Below are positions 4,838 through 61,987 of a stretch of DNA of 64,000 nt, piece after piece; within the stretch, counting starts at the first letter, position 1; every line of letters begins with the position of its first letter. Under the pieces are notes generated by a model, which made no database searches, was not told the DNA's origin, and saw only the letters and a program-made list of their open reading frames with translations. The translations under genes and the position numbers were made by a program. The DNA is from Eledone cirrhosa. Lineage: Eukaryota. The DNA lies in the NCBI GenBank assembly GCA_964016885.1, contig OZ024745.1:130448001-130512000 (forward strand), written 5' to 3'.

Positions 4838-4842
<5 letters not shown>

Positions 4843-4893
4843 AGCTGTCGAAACGGCCGAAACTCAGCCGTCAGGGGTCCTGACTCTTTTCAC
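4838..4893 (+). mobile_element. Family B element fragment (3' half of a hammerhead)
   Basis: ctagctgtc-GAAAC-GGC...GCC-GTC-aggggtcc matches the copies at 41477 and 60251. Confidence 0.7.
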
Positions 4894-9177: not shown

Positions 9178-10254
9178 CTAAGGCGGGTAAAATTCCCGAG
9201 ATCCATGGACGAGTTCTCTCCAGCGGTCTCTGTCCCTCATTATCGCTGCCATGTCCTGCGTCTCCAACAGACCAGTGTCTGTCCTTAGGGCATCAATATA
9301 CGTTAACCTTGGTCTTCCTTTTCTAGTGTGTCCATGTAGGGACTCCCAAAGGAGCACTGAGTGCAATGTCAACTCTGGATGTCGGTGAGCATGTTCAGCT
9401 AACCTCAGTCTCCTCTGTGTCACTTTTGAGCTGACTTTTGGGATGCTCCCATACAGCTCTGAGTTTTTCATCCTCAGTGTATACTGATTAATGTTCAGAG
9501 CCATCCTCAGCATTCTCGTGTAGCACCCATCCACCATCTGAGTGAGTTTCTTGGTCAGTGTCCAAGTCTCAGACCCATACAGCAGTACAGACTCCACTAC
9601 AGCAATGAAGAGGCGGATTTTCAGGTCTCTACGAAGGTCCGACCTCCACACCGATCTCAAGCTGTGGCACGCCGCCCAGGCCTTGCTCTTCCTCTCAACC
9701 ACATCTTCTTCCGTATTCCCAATCTTTGCTCCCAAATACAGGAAGCCCTCAACCAATTCTAGCGGCTTCCCGCCTACATTAGTGATCCCCTCTGGCTTCT
9801 CAACATTCTCTACCAGATATTTTGTTTTAGTCTCATTCATTATCAGCCCCACACTCATCGACACAGTCTCAACCTCCCGCATCAAATCCTCTGCCTCCTT
9901 CACTGTATTTGTCACCAAAACTATGTCGTCGGCAAATTCAGCATCCGATACCTTTTTCGCCCTAACTCTCCTGCTCTGAGCTGGTGCTACAGTAAAACCA
10001 GAGTCCTGGTGTTTCTCCAGTGCAAGGCGCATACAATAGTCCACTACGATGATAAAAAGGTAGGGAGCCAATGTATCCCCCTGGAGCAGTCCAGCTAGTA
10101 TCTCAAAGAACTCTGTCATCCCATCAGGTGTAATGACTTGGGCTTTGGTGTTGGTGTAGAGCAGTGATATCAGGTCCACTATCTTCTTGGGGATTCCATA
10201 AGCCTGTAAGATCTTCATCAGGCAGTAACGGTCCACAGAATCAAAGGCCTTCTT
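9178..10254 (-). mobile_element. 5'-truncated RTE-clade LINE, reverse transcriptase C-terminal part (uninterrupted frame)
   Basis: [40 protein letters not shown] and RRLRLA.H motifs; the N-terminal IY run of the ORF track is only the flanking (TA)n. Confidence 0.92.
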
Positions 10255-10255
10255 A

Positions 10256-10636
<381 letters not shown>

Positions 10637-10639
<3 letters not shown>

Positions 10640-10773
10640 AAAATGTTCAAGACCCCGACGGCAGAGCTCAAGCCCTTTCAACGGCTATTTCTGGACTGAA
10701 ATAGCCGTCGAAACGGCTCGAGCTTTGCCGTCGGGGTCTTGAACATTTTCCTATTACCCACTCTACTACACTA

Positions 10774-10779
<6 letters not shown>
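10637..10779 (+). mobile_element. Family B palindromic element
   Basis: Palindrome 10637-10752 centred on ggctatttc-tggact-gaaatagcc; GAAAC-GGC...GCC-GTC-GGGGTC; flanked by (TA)n. Confidence 0.85.
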
Positions 10780-10820
<41 letters not shown>

Positions 10821-26494: not shown

Positions 26495-26663
26495 GGATCG
26501 AACCAGTTTAAAACTAACTACACCATTACTGAACAGAGTAATCGATACTTGTGGTAGTAGTGTATGGTTATATTATAAAGTATCGGGACGTGACGGCTGA
26601 GCTATTGCCGGATAGGTCTGGAACTAGCTGTTGAAATGGCAAGAGTTCAGCCGTTGGGTCTCT
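26495..26663 (-). mobile_element. Degenerate family B element
   Basis: gacggctgagct...ctagctgttgaaatggcaagagttcagccgttgggtc. Confidence 0.5.
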
Positions 26664-27270
26664 TATGTATGTATGTCAGTGTTGACGCTTATATTTGTTT
26701 AAAAGATATTTATACTCTGAATCATTTGTCTAGTAAATTACTGGGTCGAGAAACAGTGATCGATAAAGAAGGACTGAGATTATTATTTTGAAGACTATAC
26801 ACCAGCATGATGACAATCCAATGACACAATCTAATATGAGAGGAGAGGAATATACATTAATGTGTATATGCATATGTGCAGGAAGAAAGCATGGCTAAAC
26901 ATTAAGATAGAAAATTAAAGAGACTGCGTGAAAGATGTAAATAGTCAGATGAAAAGGAGGATATAATAGGGGGAAACAGAAAAAAGATACAAAGAAAAAG
27001 AGAGCGAGAGCGAAAGAGAGTGTGAGAGAGAGAGGGGGGGGAGATAGAGGGGGGGGTGAGAGAGGATGAGAGATAGAAGCGTACTTCACGATACACTGAA
27101 GCAGAAAAGCTGAATGAAGAGGGCCTTAAGAGAAGATAGGGATATAAAGTAAATAGGGAAACCGGAATGCTATTGTGAGTGCTAATTTGTATGCGTATAT
27201 ATATATATATATGCATACATATATATATAATATATATATACACACACACACATATATATATATATATTCA

Positions 27271-28167: not shown

Positions 28168-28169
<2 letters not shown>

Positions 28170-28311
28170 AATAATTCTGAGAATTAGCCGTCGAAACGGC
28201 TTGAGCTCAGCCGTCGGGGTCTTACTGGTTCCTATTACCCACTCTACTACCCTAAGTATTGAGTACTTTGGTGCGTTATGGTCCACCTGGTTCCTTACCA
28301 CATTTCCTTCG

Positions 28312-28314
<3 letters not shown>
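28168..28314 (+). mobile_element. Family B element (single arm)
   Basis: gaattagccgtc-GAAAC-GGC ttgagctca GCC-GTC-ggggtc plus conserved tail ending ttccttcgtta(TA)n. Confidence 0.88.
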
Positions 28315-28387
<73 letters not shown>

Positions 28388-35136: not shown

Positions 35137-35340
35137 TAACGAAGGAAGTGTAGTAAGGAACCAGGTGGACCATAACCCACCAGAGTATTCGATACTTTGT
35201 ACTTTGGATAGTAGAGTGGGTAATAGGAAAAGAGTCAGGATCTCGACGGCAGAGCTCAAGCCGTTTCGACGGCTATTTCTGGACAGAAATAGCCGTCGAA
35301 ACGTCTTGAGCCCTGCCGTCGGTGTTTTAACTCTTTTCCT
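35137..35340 (-). mobile_element. Family B palindromic element
   Basis: Centre gacggctatttct-ggac-agaaatagccgtc; reverse-complemented tail. Confidence 0.85.
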
Positions 35341-39706: not shown

Positions 39707-39852
39707 TAACGAAGGAAGTGTGGTAAGGAACCAGATGGACCATAACGCACTAGAGTACTCAATACTTAGGGTAGGAGAGTGCGTAATAGGAAAAAGTTCA
39801 AGCCGTCGAAATGGGTTGAGCTCTGCCGCTGGGGTTTGAACTTGTTGTTCCT
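39707..39852 (-). mobile_element. Family B element, centre deleted
   Basis: Tail aacgaaggaagtgtggtaaggaacc... plus inverted half. Confidence 0.8.
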
Positions 39853-41367: not shown

Positions 41368-41874
<507 letters not shown>

Positions 41875-41910
41875 ATATATTTATATATATATATATTTAT
41901 ATATATATAT

Positions 41911-54835: not shown

Positions 54836-55025
54836 TAGGGTGTGGTACAATACCAGGGGGACCATAACCCACCAGAGTACTCGATACTTTGGGTAGTAGA
54901 GTGGCTAATATGTAAAGATTCAGGACCCCCGACGACTGAGCTTCGGCCGTTTCGACACCTAGATCTGAGGTCAGTTGTAGGTTTCGAAACGGCTAGAGCT
55001 CACCCGCCAGGGTCCTGAATCTTTT

Positions 55026-56242: not shown

Positions 56243-56304
<62 letters not shown>

Positions 56305-56309
<5 letters not shown>

Positions 56310-57223
56310 TATGAAGAGAGAAGAAACATTTAGATATAATTAGTAATAAAATGTATCATACCTAAACTGCTCCTAGATTCCTCGACTACGTAGTTTCGTG
56401 GCATAAACAAAAACAATACATCATAAAGATATAGAGTCCTTGCGAGGTCTGCCGACTTATCAAGAGGATACCTCATTTTACTAGCCCCAAGAACGCATCT
56501 ACACGACGTGAGAAAGAATCCCAAAAGGCGGAGGGGGAGGTAGTCACGCGATATAACGGTCGAGAAACAGAGCTAAGCCTCTTATAACCCCGAAGAAAAT
56601 ACCACGGAGGCGGAGGGGGTATTTATATCGAAGCCGTAGAAGAGGTGGTGAAGGAGACGAGAAGTATGAGTAATAGCAGCTTTCCAGCAGTCACCACACT
56701 TCAAAGATTACTCAACCAGAGGGAGTTATTAACAATATATTTAGAAACACACAGATACATGCGGACACACACATATACATGAATGCATCCACACCCAACC
56801 GTGAGTTAAGGGTGCCAACCTCACCGATGTTGCTCAATGAATGACTGGGACAGACCAATCCGGCTGAACCAGATTGAACCAGTATCAGAGTTAAAAATAC
56901 ATTATGAAGAGAGAAGAAACATTTAGATATTAGTAATAAAATGTATCATACCTAAACTGCTCCTAGATTCCTCGACTACGTAGTTTCGTGGCATAAACAA
57001 AAACTTTAGGTATGATACATTTTATTACTAATTATATCTAAATGTTTCTTCTCTCTTCATAATGTATTTTTAACTCTGATACTGGTTCAGTCTGGTTCAG
57101 CCGGATTGGTCTGTCCCAGTCATTCATTGAGCAACATCGGTGAGGTTGGCACCCTTAACTCACGGTTGGGTGTGGATGCATTCATGTATATGTGTGTGTC
57201 CGCATGTATCTGTGTGTTTCTAA

Positions 57224-57289: not shown

Positions 57290-58542
57290 AGAGAGAGGGA
57301 GAGAGAGGTGGTGAGAGAAAGTGCGAGGGAGAGAGAGAAATAATAAGGGAGAGGGTAAGAAAGATAGATAGATAGATAAATATTTTCCTTGTACATTATT
57401 GAGTGCGAACCACTTCGTTTTAAAAAGGTTATTTTCCATCAGCTTACATTCATTAGTTTCATGTAATACTTTATTTAACTATATTGAGGATACCCAGTAA
57501 TGAAATTTCTACAAATTAACCATTTGATTTTGGAACTGCCGTGTAAAATAAGCATATATACTTGCTATTTGAAGAAAATTAACTCCCTACTGTAAGAATC
57601 ATGAAGCGTACTCGTCTTATATTTGGAAACTTTGCAGAGATATTATTCATGTTAAGTCGTTATATGAAGAACTAATCACCCAGTGTACCCTATGTACTAA
57701 TATACATTTAAGACTTGTTCACAGATATATTCGCATAAATGTTATGCAACTATTTTCAGATAAAACTTCATAAACCGTCTGTTATAGTGTTTAGGGTATA
57801 ATTAGAGCTTTTTATTCTAACTATTTTTGCCTGGTCTCTTAACTATTCTGTATAGAAATTTCATTAACCCATTAGAATAGGGGCTAGACCTTCCCAATAT
57901 TTTCTATTTGAACTCAGAAATTGCATTCATTTTTTTTTTTATTAATCTTGAAAATCCTGGGTAATTTCGTGAAATTCTCCTTGTCCGTGTAACTGAATGA
58001 AGTGCCATAGTTAAAAAACATATTTCTAAATTTTCGTTCAGGCATTTTGTATTTTCGTCTGATGAGTGCATACCATAAATAGAGTAATATAACTAACGAG
58101 TTTGAAAGAGTTCTATGATTCTAGTCATCGTCTGCAGTATAACACAGAGATAAACTATTGTGAATGCAACATCTATGAATTAATCCAGTAGGAGACAAGA
58201 AAACATTATATATGCAAGTCATTCTAGGCGATTAACTTTAGCTTTCATAAATAATGTGCTTATATGCAGCAACTTATTTACTATGGATCTACAGTGACTG
58301 GTCAAATATCAACAGCTTATTGAAATACTTCCAGCTTTTCAATTTACTAAGCGCAAAGACATATCCCAATACTCAATCTTTTCTTAACCCCATATATCTT
58401 ACCCTGGATTGTCTCTGTAATATTTCAATAGGGCGAAGAGCGTATATGATATGCTCTTCAAGCGACGCCTAGCTGAGACCGCTTGGAGCTGCCGTCCTGA
58501 TGTTACCATTCTATACCCATTCTGCATCATTCCATGCACTGC

Positions 58543-58580
<38 letters not shown>

Positions 58581-58584
<4 letters not shown>

Positions 58585-59512
58585 TGTAGATGACACAGTA
58601 TTGGCAGCGAACTCTAAGGAGTAAATACAGCACCTCATGAATAAACTCTCGAGGGCCTGCCAGGAACTTAACTTAAACATAGTCTGAGAAAAACCAATGT
58701 ACTGGTCGAAAGTGTCAAGCACCCCCTCACGCCCACCCCCCATCATCATTAACAAGTACGAGCTTGAGTTGATCCATGAATTATTTGACTCCATCGTCAC
58801 TGACAACCTCTCCCTGGACCCCGAGCTCAGCAGGAGAGTTGAACGAGCAGCCTCCACATTTGTCAGGCTGACAAAGAGAGTCTGGGAGAACAGAAAACTA
58901 CAAACACCAAGTTTGCTGTCTACAAGGTGTGTGTCCTCAGCACACTACTTTATGACAGTGAGGCATGGAGCATCTACTCAGGAGCGAAGTCTCAATGTCT
59001 TCCACCTTCGTAGCCTGAGACGCATTTTGGATATGAAGTGGACCGACATGATCATTAACACTATAGTCCTAAACCGCGCCAGGATACCCAGCATATATAC
59101 CCTGCTGTTTGCGACGTCTGCACTGTCTCGGCCACGTACATCGTATGCCAGAGGAGAGGATCCCAAAGGACATAGTGTATGGAGAACTGACCACCGGCGC
59201 AAGAATCCGTAGACGATGTCATCATCGTTTCAAAGAGGGTTGCAAGAGGGATATGAAGTCAATATACTTGAACACGGAGAGGTGGGAGGAGGTCAGTAAT
59301 GAGCGCCCAGAACAGAGACGAGTACTGCACAAAAGGATGGAGCAAAGGGAGTAGAATCTGACCACAACAGCACCGGAAGAGAGCATCTGCATCTGCAGTT
59401 GCTGTATACAGGACTGCCACTCCCGCGTGGGACTGTACTGCGACAGCAGACATTGCCCCACCATCAGCCGCTGACACAAAGTTCCCCAGGAGAGAGTCTA
59501 TGGTCTTTTGAG
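58581..59512 (+). pseudogene. 5'-truncated RTE (BovB-like) LINE, degenerate
   Basis: DDTVLAA, SLRKTNVL, F.RLTKRVWEN, FHLRSLRRIL, RRLH.LGHVHRM..ERIPKDI.YGEL and a terminal C..C...CHSRVGLY...RHC zinc-finger-like motif; frameshifts. Confidence 0.9.
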
Positions 59513-59594: not shown

Positions 59595-59846
59595 GTGTGT
59601 GTGTGTTGTGTGTATGCTCTCAAAAGATTATATATATATATATATATTATATATATATATATATATATAAAATATATAAGATCAAAAGATGGTTAAAAGA
59701 GTTCCATGTATTTTATTATGCGCATTTCAAAAACAAATATCATTATGCAATAACACACTTGTGAATAGTGCAGTTTTAAATCAACATATGTTGATTTAAA
59801 ACTGCACTATTCACAAGTGTGTTTTAACCTTCATATCATGTCTCCC

Positions 59847-59917
59847 TATTTTATCTGATGAAAACGCAAATGTTATTGCATGATGATATTTGTTTTTGAA
59901 ATGCGCATAATAAAATA
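59847..59917 (+). ncRNA. Type I hammerhead (family A)
   Basis: TATTTTAT-CTGATGA-AAA C GCAAATGTTAT/ATGATATTTGT T TTT-GAAA-TGCGCA-TA-ATAAAATA. Confidence 0.88.
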
Positions 59918-60046
59918 CATGGAACTCTTTTAAACATCTTTTGATCTTATATATTATTATTTATACTCCAGTTCTACAAACTGTAGAGTACTTCTTATCC
60001 GATATCTGCATTGCTTTATTGTACTACAATAAAACTCACCTCCTAC

Positions 60047-60101
<55 letters not shown>

Positions 60102-60110
60102 TACTCGTTC

Positions 60111-60143
<33 letters not shown>

Positions 60144-60144
60144 G

Positions 60145-60220
<76 letters not shown>

Positions 60221-60250
60221 CTATGTATATATATATATATATATATATAT

Positions 60251-60441
60251 AGGAACGAGTAGGACCCCGACGGCTGAGCTCAAGCCGTTTCGACGGCTAA
60301 TTCTGGACGCAGAATTAGCCGTCGAAACGGCTTGAGCTCAGCCGTGGGGTCCTACTCGTTCCTAGTACCCACTCTACTACCCTAAGTATTGAGTACTTCG
60401 GTGCGTTATGGTCCATCTGGTTCCTTACCACATTTCCTTCG

Positions 60442-60444
<3 letters not shown>
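60251..60444 (+). mobile_element. Family B palindromic element
   Basis: Near-perfect palindrome 60251-60363 centred on gacggctaattct-ggacgc-agaattagccgtc, plus tail. Confidence 0.9.
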
Positions 60445-60702: not shown

Positions 60703-60788
<86 letters not shown>

Positions 60789-61844
60789 GGAGGTGAGTTT
60801 TATTGTAGTACAATAAAGCAATGCAGATATCGGATAAGAAGCACTCTACAGTTTGTAGGACTGGAGTCCTACAAACTGTAGAGTGCTTCTTATACATAAT
60901 ATATACATAATATACATAATATATAAGATAAAAAGATGGTTAAAAGAGTTCCATGTATTTTATTATGCGCATTTCAAAGTTATTTATTTTTCAAAGTTAT
61001 TTATCATACATTATATAATACTTGTTACACATTCTATATCACTCCTATTTAACACTTCCCTTTCTTCCTTTTCCTTTTCTTTTCTTTTTCTTTTAATTTC
61101 TAACCCCTAATCTGTACCTTTTCTCACTGTGCCTAACATTGAAACAATTATTACATAATACAATATATTCTTACTTTATATCACCTTGAAAAAATCCTTC
61201 GTAAACAAACATTTTTTTTGACGTTAGATATTCATCCTCAATTCATTATTTTTTTCTCCCTTTCATCTAACTTACTCATGCTCATCTCACAATATATCCT
61301 TACTTACATTACTTGTGTTTTTTTAATAATTCATGTCAACATTTTCTTTCTATCCCTTAAATATTATTCTTAATACATATTAACATTTTCTTTCTATCGC
61401 ACATATTATTAAACCCTTAAATATTATTCTTAATACATATTAACAATTTCTTTTCATCGCACATATTATTAAACCCTTCAATATACAAACCTTAACTTTA
61501 CATCATTTTTTTCTCTTCGTTAATTTTCAAATTCTTTTAATTTATACATTATCTTCCAACGGTTTTTCAACCTCTCTATGTAAAACAATATATTTTTCAC
61601 AGTTATAAAAGCTATCTCTCTCTCTATATCACCCATCTCTCCTCCTATCTCATCCTTCCTCATTATACTCCTCCCCCTCCACTTTTTACTCTCATCTCCT
61701 CCTCTTTTTCATCCTTTCCAACCCCCCCCCCCCTCAAAACATTTTTTTCCCCAATATCACACATCAATCTAAAACTACTTTTCATATGTTGATTTAAAAC
61801 TGCACTATCCACAAGTGTGTTTTAACCTTCATATCATGTCTTCC

Positions 61845-61915
61845 TATTTTATCTGATGAAAACACAAATATTATTGCATGATGATATTTGTTTTTGAAAT
61901 GCGCATAATAAAATA
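61845..61915 (+). ncRNA. Type I hammerhead (family A)
   Basis: As 59847, with two G-U pairs replaced by A-U in stem II (ACAAATATTAT). Confidence 0.88.
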
Positions 61916-61945
61916 CATGGAACTCTTTTAACCATCTTTTGATCT

Positions 61946-61987
<42 letters not shown>

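What the first reader, a model, noticed from the sequence alone, without database searches (positions are those of the whole stretch)
60251..60444. Family B: palindromes formed by fold-back through a hammerhead's stem II, leaving only the GAAAC...GUC half on both strands
Seen: nine copies or fragments (4838, 10637, 26495, 28168, 35137, 39707, 41477, 54836, 60251), most reading hairpin-GTC-GAAAC-GGC-(TGAGCTCA)-GCC-GTC-GGGGTC. This is stem II, GAAA, stem III, a GUC triplet and a stem I 3' strand. None has CTGATGA; a reverse-complement copy of the 3' half sits in its place. The central hairpin covaries (GGCTAATTCT, GGCTATTTCT, AGCTAGATC). Inference: either cDNA repeatedly snaps back on the stem II hairpin to prime second-strand synthesis, or the palindromic, ribozyme-dead form is itself the mobile unit. 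A split ribozyme completed in trans is also conceivable.
Basis: partly seen in the sequence, partly recalled or inferred. Interest (0 to 1): 0.75.

Follow-up and report, generated by a model that had tools for sequence, protein, structure and literature searches.

The report
Penelope stubs record capped RNA start
These mirror-image repeats are short double-ended stubs of a Penelope-type jumping gene, and they lack half of its self-cutting RNA, likely because the element's capped messenger begins in the middle of that ribozyme, so thousands of genomic copies likely record where the RNA starts and how it is copied.

Summary
Real, and a true hammerhead half, but not a stem II fold-back. Family B is the 3' end of an intact, young Penelope-like retrotransposon with Hydra-clade motifs (717-aa RT plus GIY-YIG-type ORF in 3.54-kb tandems). 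The parent carries a full type I hammerhead, mostly with a U3-A8 core rather than CUGAUGA. Each palindrome is two separately truncated arms joined head to head in (TA)n; 64 of 64 close pairs have the tail on exactly one arm. Of 184 arms, 121 stop 11-24 nt before GAAAC, inside loop II, at a conserved initiator-like YAGTY word. Arms that start at its A and abut TA repeats carry an extra G (85 G : 15 A; control 1 : 90), the known mark of a copied 5' cap. Best reading: transcription starts inside the ribozyme, and two target-primed cDNAs run off the capped end and join. A smaller peak of arm ends lies at the predicted cleavage site. The inverted-plus-tail layout is published; a start site inside the hammerhead was not found in my searches. 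This scan noted similar stubs in other genomes. No RNA data were available.

The parts
60251..60308 (-). Tail-less arm (short 3' end, joined to TA run); reaches 17 nt 5' of GAAAC in parent coordinates
60309..60309 (.). One base at the head-to-head junction explained by neither arm
60310..60444 (+). Tailed arm: starts 14 nt 5' of GAAAC (in loop II); stem II 3' strand, GAAAC (60324), stem III, GUC triplet with its C deleted in this copy, stem I 3' strand (60346), linker to 60364
60365..60444 (+). 80-nt tail: the stretch between the two 3' ends; in full-length copies it runs on into the ORF leader
60101..60149 (+). Inverted duplicate of the element's short end plus adjoining microsatellite (mirror of about 60215-60263)
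4838..4893 (+). Lone tail-less arm, another subfamily, starts at -12 (end approximate)
10637..10780 (.). Inverted pair; tailed arm on + from 10698, tail cut short
26495..26665 (.). Old-subfamily pair, decayed; tail on the left, + arm starts at -17 (26616); end approximate
28168..28315 (+). Tailed arm from -13 (28180) behind a very short tail-less stub and filler; end approximate
35137..35340 (.). Inverted pair, tailed arm on - (35137-35284), tail-less arm on +; end approximate
39707..39850 (.). Asymmetric pair: tailed arm on - stops near +31, tail-less arm on +; end approximate
41477..41879 (.). Inverted pair (41477-41658) and a further tail fragment (41802-41879)
54836..55010 (.). Inverted pair, tail on the left, decayed; end approximate

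Best explanation
Family B palindromes are short double-ended insertions of a Penelope-like retrotransposon with Hydra-clade motifs, in which two cDNAs were likely primed from the two sides of a cut in a TA run and likely ran off the capped 5' end of an mRNA predicted to start inside loop II of the element's own hammerhead. Shown: the parent element, its full hammerhead, two fixed 3' ends 80 nt apart, one tail per pair, independent arm lengths, a sharp 5' wall at -18 to -23 (G of GAAAC = 0), an extra G before A(-18), and a smaller peak of arm ends at the GUC cleavage site (+23). Inferred: the YAGTY word is an initiator of an internal Pol II promoter; the protein binds the tail region near the 5' end of its mRNA and starts reverse transcription at the two tail sites (by analogy with Poseidon in vitro, PMC11167929); both copies reach the RNA end after about 60 and 140 nt, like strong-stop DNA, and are joined by end-joining with small trims, microhomology or filler. 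Long and full-length insertions would come from read-through RNA of tandem copies, which alone holds a complete ribozyme; the +23 ends would come from RNA that the ribozyme had cut.
For: Parent: tandem units 3,543 bp apart, 5 mismatches between the two units compared, open ORF with RWR, DKT, CxCX5C, CxxC, AYIG and YRDD; large versions of the same layout with 1.5-kb arms (L121). Two 3' ends: 64 of 64 close inverted pairs have the tail on one arm only; loose ends into TA runs at both sites in independent contigs. Independent arms: tail-less arm longer in 32, tailed arm longer in 19, within 1 nt in 13; in 14 pairs the tailed arm stops 3' of GAAAC while the other arm holds it. Wall: 121 of 184 arms start at -24..-11, only 4 at -57..-25, 18 further up; summed contig depth falls about 20-fold across this point in run X1 (not a copy number). 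The A at -18 is invariant in 11 of 11 long copies while loop II upstream diverges. Cap mark: after TATATAT, R before A(-18) is G in 85 of the 100 rows listed (180 in all); the same test at -14 gives 1 of 91; hand counts, Fisher p 4e-37. In palindrome junctions G in 9 of 11 against 14 of 61. No long copy has G at -19 among the 11 aligned, and the G occurs in both main subfamilies. Extra G as a cap mark is reported for L1 (PMC11702581, passage). Cleavage-site peak: of 54 distinct loci in the 100 rows, 27 start at +23, 9 at +24, 4 ambiguous +21..+24, 13 spread over +11..+21 (hand count); a G not explained by the partner arm precedes only 2 of the 27.
Against: No RNA evidence: start site, cap and cleavage are read from DNA alone. 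The extra G could be untemplated addition at any RNA end, not a cap. Direct TA joins without G are about as common as G joins at -18 (12 and 12 of 49 loci, hand count). The junction test is lenient: only G or A could score at -18, three letters at control sites. Arm ends spread over -12..-23, so trimming or a second start near -22 must be assumed. The +23 peak could be RT pausing at the foot of stem III or in the G run, the pattern gives upstream starts less room, and the peak is as strong in a subfamily whose long copies read C3-A8, a mismatched core. Free-energy folding recovers the hammerhead well for L201 and L168 but not for most older copies. My pairing missed very short tail-less arms, and later deletions could explain some asymmetric pairs. 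Pfam, NCBIfam and PDB gave no hit for the ORF, so the clade rests on motifs.
Confidence: 0.75

Rival explanations
1. One cDNA folds back on itself near the RNA 5' end (self-priming) and copies itself as far as the short end; this is the reader's first idea moved from stem II to loop II, and is close to the published self-priming view.
For: Arms of one insertion are closer to each other than to other copies. Many junctions have 0 or 1 shared base and a 6-nt centre that could be a hairpin loop. Self-priming is the interpretation in PMC3846280 (Discussion).
Against: The tail-less arm holds sequence absent from the tailed arm in 32 of 64 pairs, 14 of them by a wide margin. Some junctions show a cap-like base on both arms (L180, L227, L295). 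The published version needs an antisense template, while the extra G marks a sense 5' end.
Confidence: 0.12
2. The wall is a reverse-transcriptase stall in the structured hammerhead of a longer RNA, not an RNA end.
For: The wall lies within a folded region; no RNA data.
Against: Arms stop after the stem II 3' strand has been copied, in loop sequence. A stall does not explain a G added only before A(-18) or the invariant A at fixed distance.
Confidence: 0.07
3. The ribozyme-dead palindrome is itself a non-autonomous mobile unit copied from palindromic masters.
For: Short palindromes far outnumber long copies; some junction strings recur.
Against: 57 distinct junctions among 94 (some differences are later point mutations). 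Subfamily markers are those of autonomous long copies. Arm lengths vary freely.
Confidence: 0.04
4. The half-ribozyme is kept in order to be completed and cut in trans.
For: The predicted mRNA 5' end is a half hammerhead, so pairing in trans with read-through RNA is conceivable.
Against: No 5'-half partner family was seen; the half form follows from the start site alone; the focal copy has lost the cleavage-site C in one arm.
Confidence: 0.02

Closest known systems
Hydra clade of endonuclease-positive Penelope-like elements (Craig et al. 2021, PMC8557442; read sections 3, 6, 11, 15 and passages, not the supplements)
   Same: Single ORF with C-terminal GIY-YIG-type domain, RWK-like, DKT, CxCX5C, CxxC and CxH motifs, hammerhead near the 3' end, insertion in (TA)n, tandem and inverted copies, tail on one end.
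   Different: Unit is 3.54 kb (most Hydra elements are under 3 kb); tail 80 nt (30-40 typical); core mostly U3-A8; long stem II and loop II; most copies are 200-nt stubs with a fixed 5' wall.
Inverted pLTR with optional tail (Adineta Penelopes, PMC3846280; passages and Discussion read)
   Same: Head-to-head junction, tail on one arm.
   Different: That paper explains the junctions by self-priming on an antisense template; the data here point to a capped sense template and two independent cDNAs.
Poseidon PAc of Anolis in vitro (Frangieh et al. 2024, PMC11167929; parts 1-2 of 4 read)
   Same: Both target strands cut and extended, RT starts at two internal sites that bound the tail, AT-rich targets, predicted dimer.
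   Different: The text I read does not derive inverted stubs or a 5' wall, and found no reads ending at the ribozyme site.
Drosophila virilis Penelope internal promoter (Schostak et al. 2008, PMC2377424; passages and Discussion read)
   Same: Start site and Inr/DPE-type promoter inside the pLTR.
   Different: There an intron follows and its end maps to helix I of the hammerhead (PMC4209133); here the start is predicted inside loop II, and no clear DPE was seen.
U3-A8 hammerheads and opposite-strand ribozyme pairs of Schistosoma Cercyon PLEs (Cervera and de la Pena 2014, PMC4209133; part 1 of 4 and passages read)
   Same: U3-A8 core covariation; ribozymes in nearby opposite orientation from truncated PLEs.
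   Different: Those are minimal hammerheads without helix III; this one has a 5-bp helix III and its stubs lose the 5' core.
L1 twin priming and extra G at full-length 5' ends (PMC11702581; passages read)
   Same: Two target-primed cDNAs joined by end-joining; extra G ascribed to the cap.
   Different: L1's two cDNAs cover different parts of the RNA; here both cover the same part, giving a palindrome.

Membership tests
EN+ Penelope-like element | Single ORF with RT and C-terminal GIY-YIG endonuclease | tested here: met
   717-aa ORF with YRDD and AYIG motifs; judged by motif, as Pfam, NCBIfam and PDB gave no hit
EN+ Penelope-like element | Tandem or partial-tandem copies forming pLTRs; inverted 5'-truncated copy; tail on one end | tested here: met
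   L201-L203 tandems with inverted copy; L121, L130; 64 of 64 pairs
EN+ Penelope-like element | RT groups with PLE and telomerase RTs in a tree | not tested
   No reference PLE proteins were held; no tree built
Hydra clade | RWK-type motif, DKT, CxCX5C linker, CxxC and CxH around conserved E and N, no CCHH | tested here: met
   RWR 37, DKTG 117, CxCX5C 572, CxxC 670. My CxH pattern had the wrong spacing and found nothing; CKH after LLN is visible in the translation, and no cysteine pair sits between the GIY and YIG positions by eye
Hydra clade | Insertion into (TA)n | tested here: met
Type I hammerhead (parent) | Core Y3-UGAN-R8-A, GAAA, NUH and three helices | tested here: met
   Positions 3 and 8: CG 7, UA 3, mismatch 1 of 11; helices 82-100% paired. 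Seven of the 11 rows were found by a CTGANGA pattern, so the CG share is biased
Type I hammerhead (parent) | Self-cleavage | not testable with these tools
   Only the indirect +23 peak
Type I hammerhead (window palindromes) | 5' core strand and stem I 5' strand present | tested here: not met
   Absent in all nine window copies
Non-LTR retrozyme | Non-coding tandem repeats with a complete hammerhead in each unit | tested here: not met
   Stubs are dispersed, inverted and ribozyme-incomplete; the tandem units are coding; definition from 10.64898/2026.07.22.740005, part 1 of 5
MITE or foldback DNA transposon | Fixed internal structure between terminal inverted repeats | tested here: not met
   Variable arms and junctions, one-sided tail, RT-encoding parent
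Pol II internal promoter (Inr type) | Transcripts start at the initiator A | tested here: inconclusive
   DNA footprint only; the Inr consensus is recalled, not from a call

The most novel reading that the evidence does not exclude
This retrotransposon has built its promoter inside its ribozyme: the mRNA is born as half a hammerhead and cannot cut itself, while read-through RNA holds a working U3-A8 hammerhead that cuts in vivo. More than 10,000 insertions record both RNA ends at base resolution and show that Penelope-like elements copy a capped sense RNA twice, from both sides of the target cut, making strong-stop-like palindromes as their main product.
Probability: 0.5. Interest if true: 0.7.

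Novelty: new variant of a known kind. Interest (0 to 1): 0.52.

Why it matters
How Penelope-like elements make inverted ends and tails, whether they copy sense or antisense RNA, and what their hammerheads do are stated as open in PMC8557442, PMC3846280 and PMC11167929. This family gives countable genomic evidence on all three (capped sense template, two cDNAs, possible cleavage in vivo) and a young intact element with exact predicted sites for testing. It also explains a very common short repeat of this genome that could be filed as a MITE or a microRNA-like hairpin. The architecture itself is known, which limits the surprise.

Tried and rejected
Rfam: no hammerhead family among the 150 of 325 window hits shown or the 27 hits on the focal copy; the hits were hairpin and microsatellite matches below gathering score. 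CTGANGA within 6-36 nt of GAAAC: 55 hits, read as chance junctions. One search used a pattern with one C too many (8 hits) and was replaced (2,893 hits; of 100 rows listed 83 TTGAGAA, 15 CTGAGAA, 2 with G8; hand count; N7 fixed as G). One search's pattern caught 1 locus and was replaced. One search, a first small control (27 rows), was superseded. No RNA holder listed. Runs X5 and X6 gave 3 contigs each, too few to use. Ideas dropped on inspection: tRNA-derived SINE head in the tail (the tail continues into the ORF leader), REP, Helentron or DIRS-like element (the parent encodes a PLE-type RT). DPE and MTE matches downstream were partial by eye and are not claimed. The subfamily control for the +23 peak showed no difference between cores. 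Six literature searches found no report of a start site inside a PLE hammerhead or of cap-G in PLE stubs; subscription papers, Repbase and the supplements of PMC8557442 (which may hold this family) were not seen. Sequence look-up in earlier findings gave nothing.

Full report
Observation. The focal copy is a palindrome with arms at 60251-60308 and 60310-60364 and an 80-nt tail to 60444, set in TA runs. The window lies on C5 of G000, a 3.0-Gb genome; from recall of a SINE in the window it looks like an octopus, which no call shows. The arm pattern occurs 55,897 times exactly, control 0, and tight palindromes with tail 12,307 times. Positions below count from the G of GAAAC (0).

The parent. CTGANGA close to GAAAC gave only chance-like junctions, but at 37-66 nt a recurring non-palindromic form appeared. 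Following it upstream gave large inverted insertions with the same one-tail layout (L121) and full-length elements. L201-L202 hold tandem units 3,543 bp apart, the two compared differing at 5 bases, with an open 717-aa ORF. Its motifs (RWR, DKT, CxCX5C, CxxC, CxH, AYIG, YRDD) and TA targets match the Hydra clade as described in PMC8557442 section 11. Pfam, NCBIfam and PDB gave no hit and no tree was built. In full-length copies the tail runs on into the ORF leader, as for Poseidon, where the tail lies between two RT start sites.

The ribozyme. The parent has a complete type I hammerhead with a long stem II and a loop II of about 30 nt. On 11 long copies that I chose, the named structure is 88% paired with 7 two-sided changes, above all slid controls. 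Positions 3 and 8 switch between C-G in older or pattern-selected copies and U-A. Among 18 unselected long arms 13 are U3-A8, 2 C3-A8, 2 U3-G8, 1 A3-A8 and none C3-G8. One subfamily is mostly C3-A8 (23 of 35 arms read CTGAGAAG), which I infer is impaired. U3-A8 is a known PLE variant.

How the palindromes are built. I fetched the 67 regions covering the first 100 rows and added the window: 184 arms. All 64 close inverted pairs have the tail on exactly one arm. The tail-less arm reaches further 5' in 32, the tailed arm in 19, and 13 are within 1 nt; in 14 pairs the tailed arm stops 3' of GAAAC. A cDNA that folds back cannot give its copy sequence that it lacks, so two independent cDNAs fit better; later deletion could mimic some cases, and very short tail-less arms were not detected. 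Junctions are diverse (57 strings in 94). Arms within an insertion differ by 5.7% against 14.9% between insertions (40 pairs), which fits one source per insertion but does not by itself separate the models.

Why the 5' core is missing. 121 of 184 arms start between -24 and -11, only 4 between -57 and -25, 18 further upstream, and 41 at -6 or further 3' (some -22 and -23 calls are inflated by microhomology). Summed contig depth in run X1 falls about 20-fold at the same point (the tool warns this is no copy number). The A at -18, in a YAGTY word, is invariant in 11 of 11 long copies while the loop upstream diverges; it resembles the initiator consensus (recalled). For arms abutting TA runs, the purine before A(-18) is G in 85 of 100 listed rows (180 total); the matched test at -14 gives 1 of 91; these are hand counts, p 4e-37. 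Direct joins without an extra base are about as common as G joins (12 and 12 of 49 loci). Junctions inside palindromes agree (9 of 11 against 14 of 61, a lenient test). An extra G is the reported trace of cap copying in L1, and a start site within the pLTR is known for Penelope and Chlamys-3. I infer that the mRNA starts, capped, inside loop II, and that both cDNAs run off this end.

A second end. Among 54 distinct loci in the 100 rows (407 rows in all, with repeats), 27 tailed arms start exactly at +23, the first base after the GUC triplet, 9 at +24, 4 are ambiguous and 13 spread over +11..+21 (hand count). A script on the 17 stored loci scored 13 at +23, of which 2 are in fact upstream starts and 1 is ambiguous because of a GTT variant. 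Only 2 of the 27 have an unexplained G, as expected of an uncapped end. This fits cleavage in vivo, but pausing at stem III is not excluded, the pattern favours short arms, and the peak does not follow core integrity.

Comparison. Inverted pLTRs with a one-sided tail, TA targeting, U3-A8 cores and opposite-strand ribozyme pairs are all in print. The published explanation of the junctions is self-priming on antisense RNA, left open by its authors. Six searches found no report of a start site inside a PLE hammerhead or of cap-G in PLE stubs; a recent octopus repeat annotation lists Penelope-like families without hammerhead or palindrome terms (passages). Supplements were not read and may hold this family. 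After I had reached this reading, the scan's notes showed similar stubs, twin priming and RNA-end readings in other genomes; they are unchecked and add no support.

Verdict. A real, abundant, ribozyme-incomplete by-product of a known class of retrotransposon, with an unusually clear record of its mechanism. The parent's identity is near certain; the start site, cap and two-cDNA steps are likely; cleavage in vivo is only suggested. Interest 0.52.

Noticed in passing
window 59630-60050, 60771-60978, 61783-61985: A second family with the same inverted-plus-tail layout and complete CTGATGA hammerheads at 59849-59915 and 61847-61913; the focal copy sits in a TA run between its copies.
   Followed up: partly
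window 60101-60263: The left flank of the focal copy is itself mirrored: the element's short end and about 40 nt of microsatellite are duplicated in inverted orientation; a third stub, a template switch or an assembly effect.
   Followed up: partly
window about 56250-57200: Another fold-back repeat family with a long inverted duplication.
   Followed up: no
L221-L310 junctions: A common junction class has a 6-nt centre with several alternative middle letters, as if two cDNA ends annealed through a 4-nt word with tandem G-A mismatches and were then repaired; speculative.
   Followed up: no
G000:C1:64990514-64990553; L238, L276, L296: Short repeats of the first bases after the predicted start, or jumps between the two GTC words, suggest RT slippage or re-priming at the RNA 5' end.
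   Followed up: no
L091-L120: One abundant subfamily spread with a mismatched C3-A8 core, suggesting cleavage is not required for mobility.
   Followed up: partly
window 9178-10392 (-), 58399-59212: Fragments of LINE-type RT ORFs, one ending at a TA run.
   Followed up: no
L201-L203 (G000:C1:91471500-91496000): Five near-identical pLTRs in tandem with four open ORFs between them, closed by an inverted tail-less copy: a very recent insertion.
   Followed up: partly
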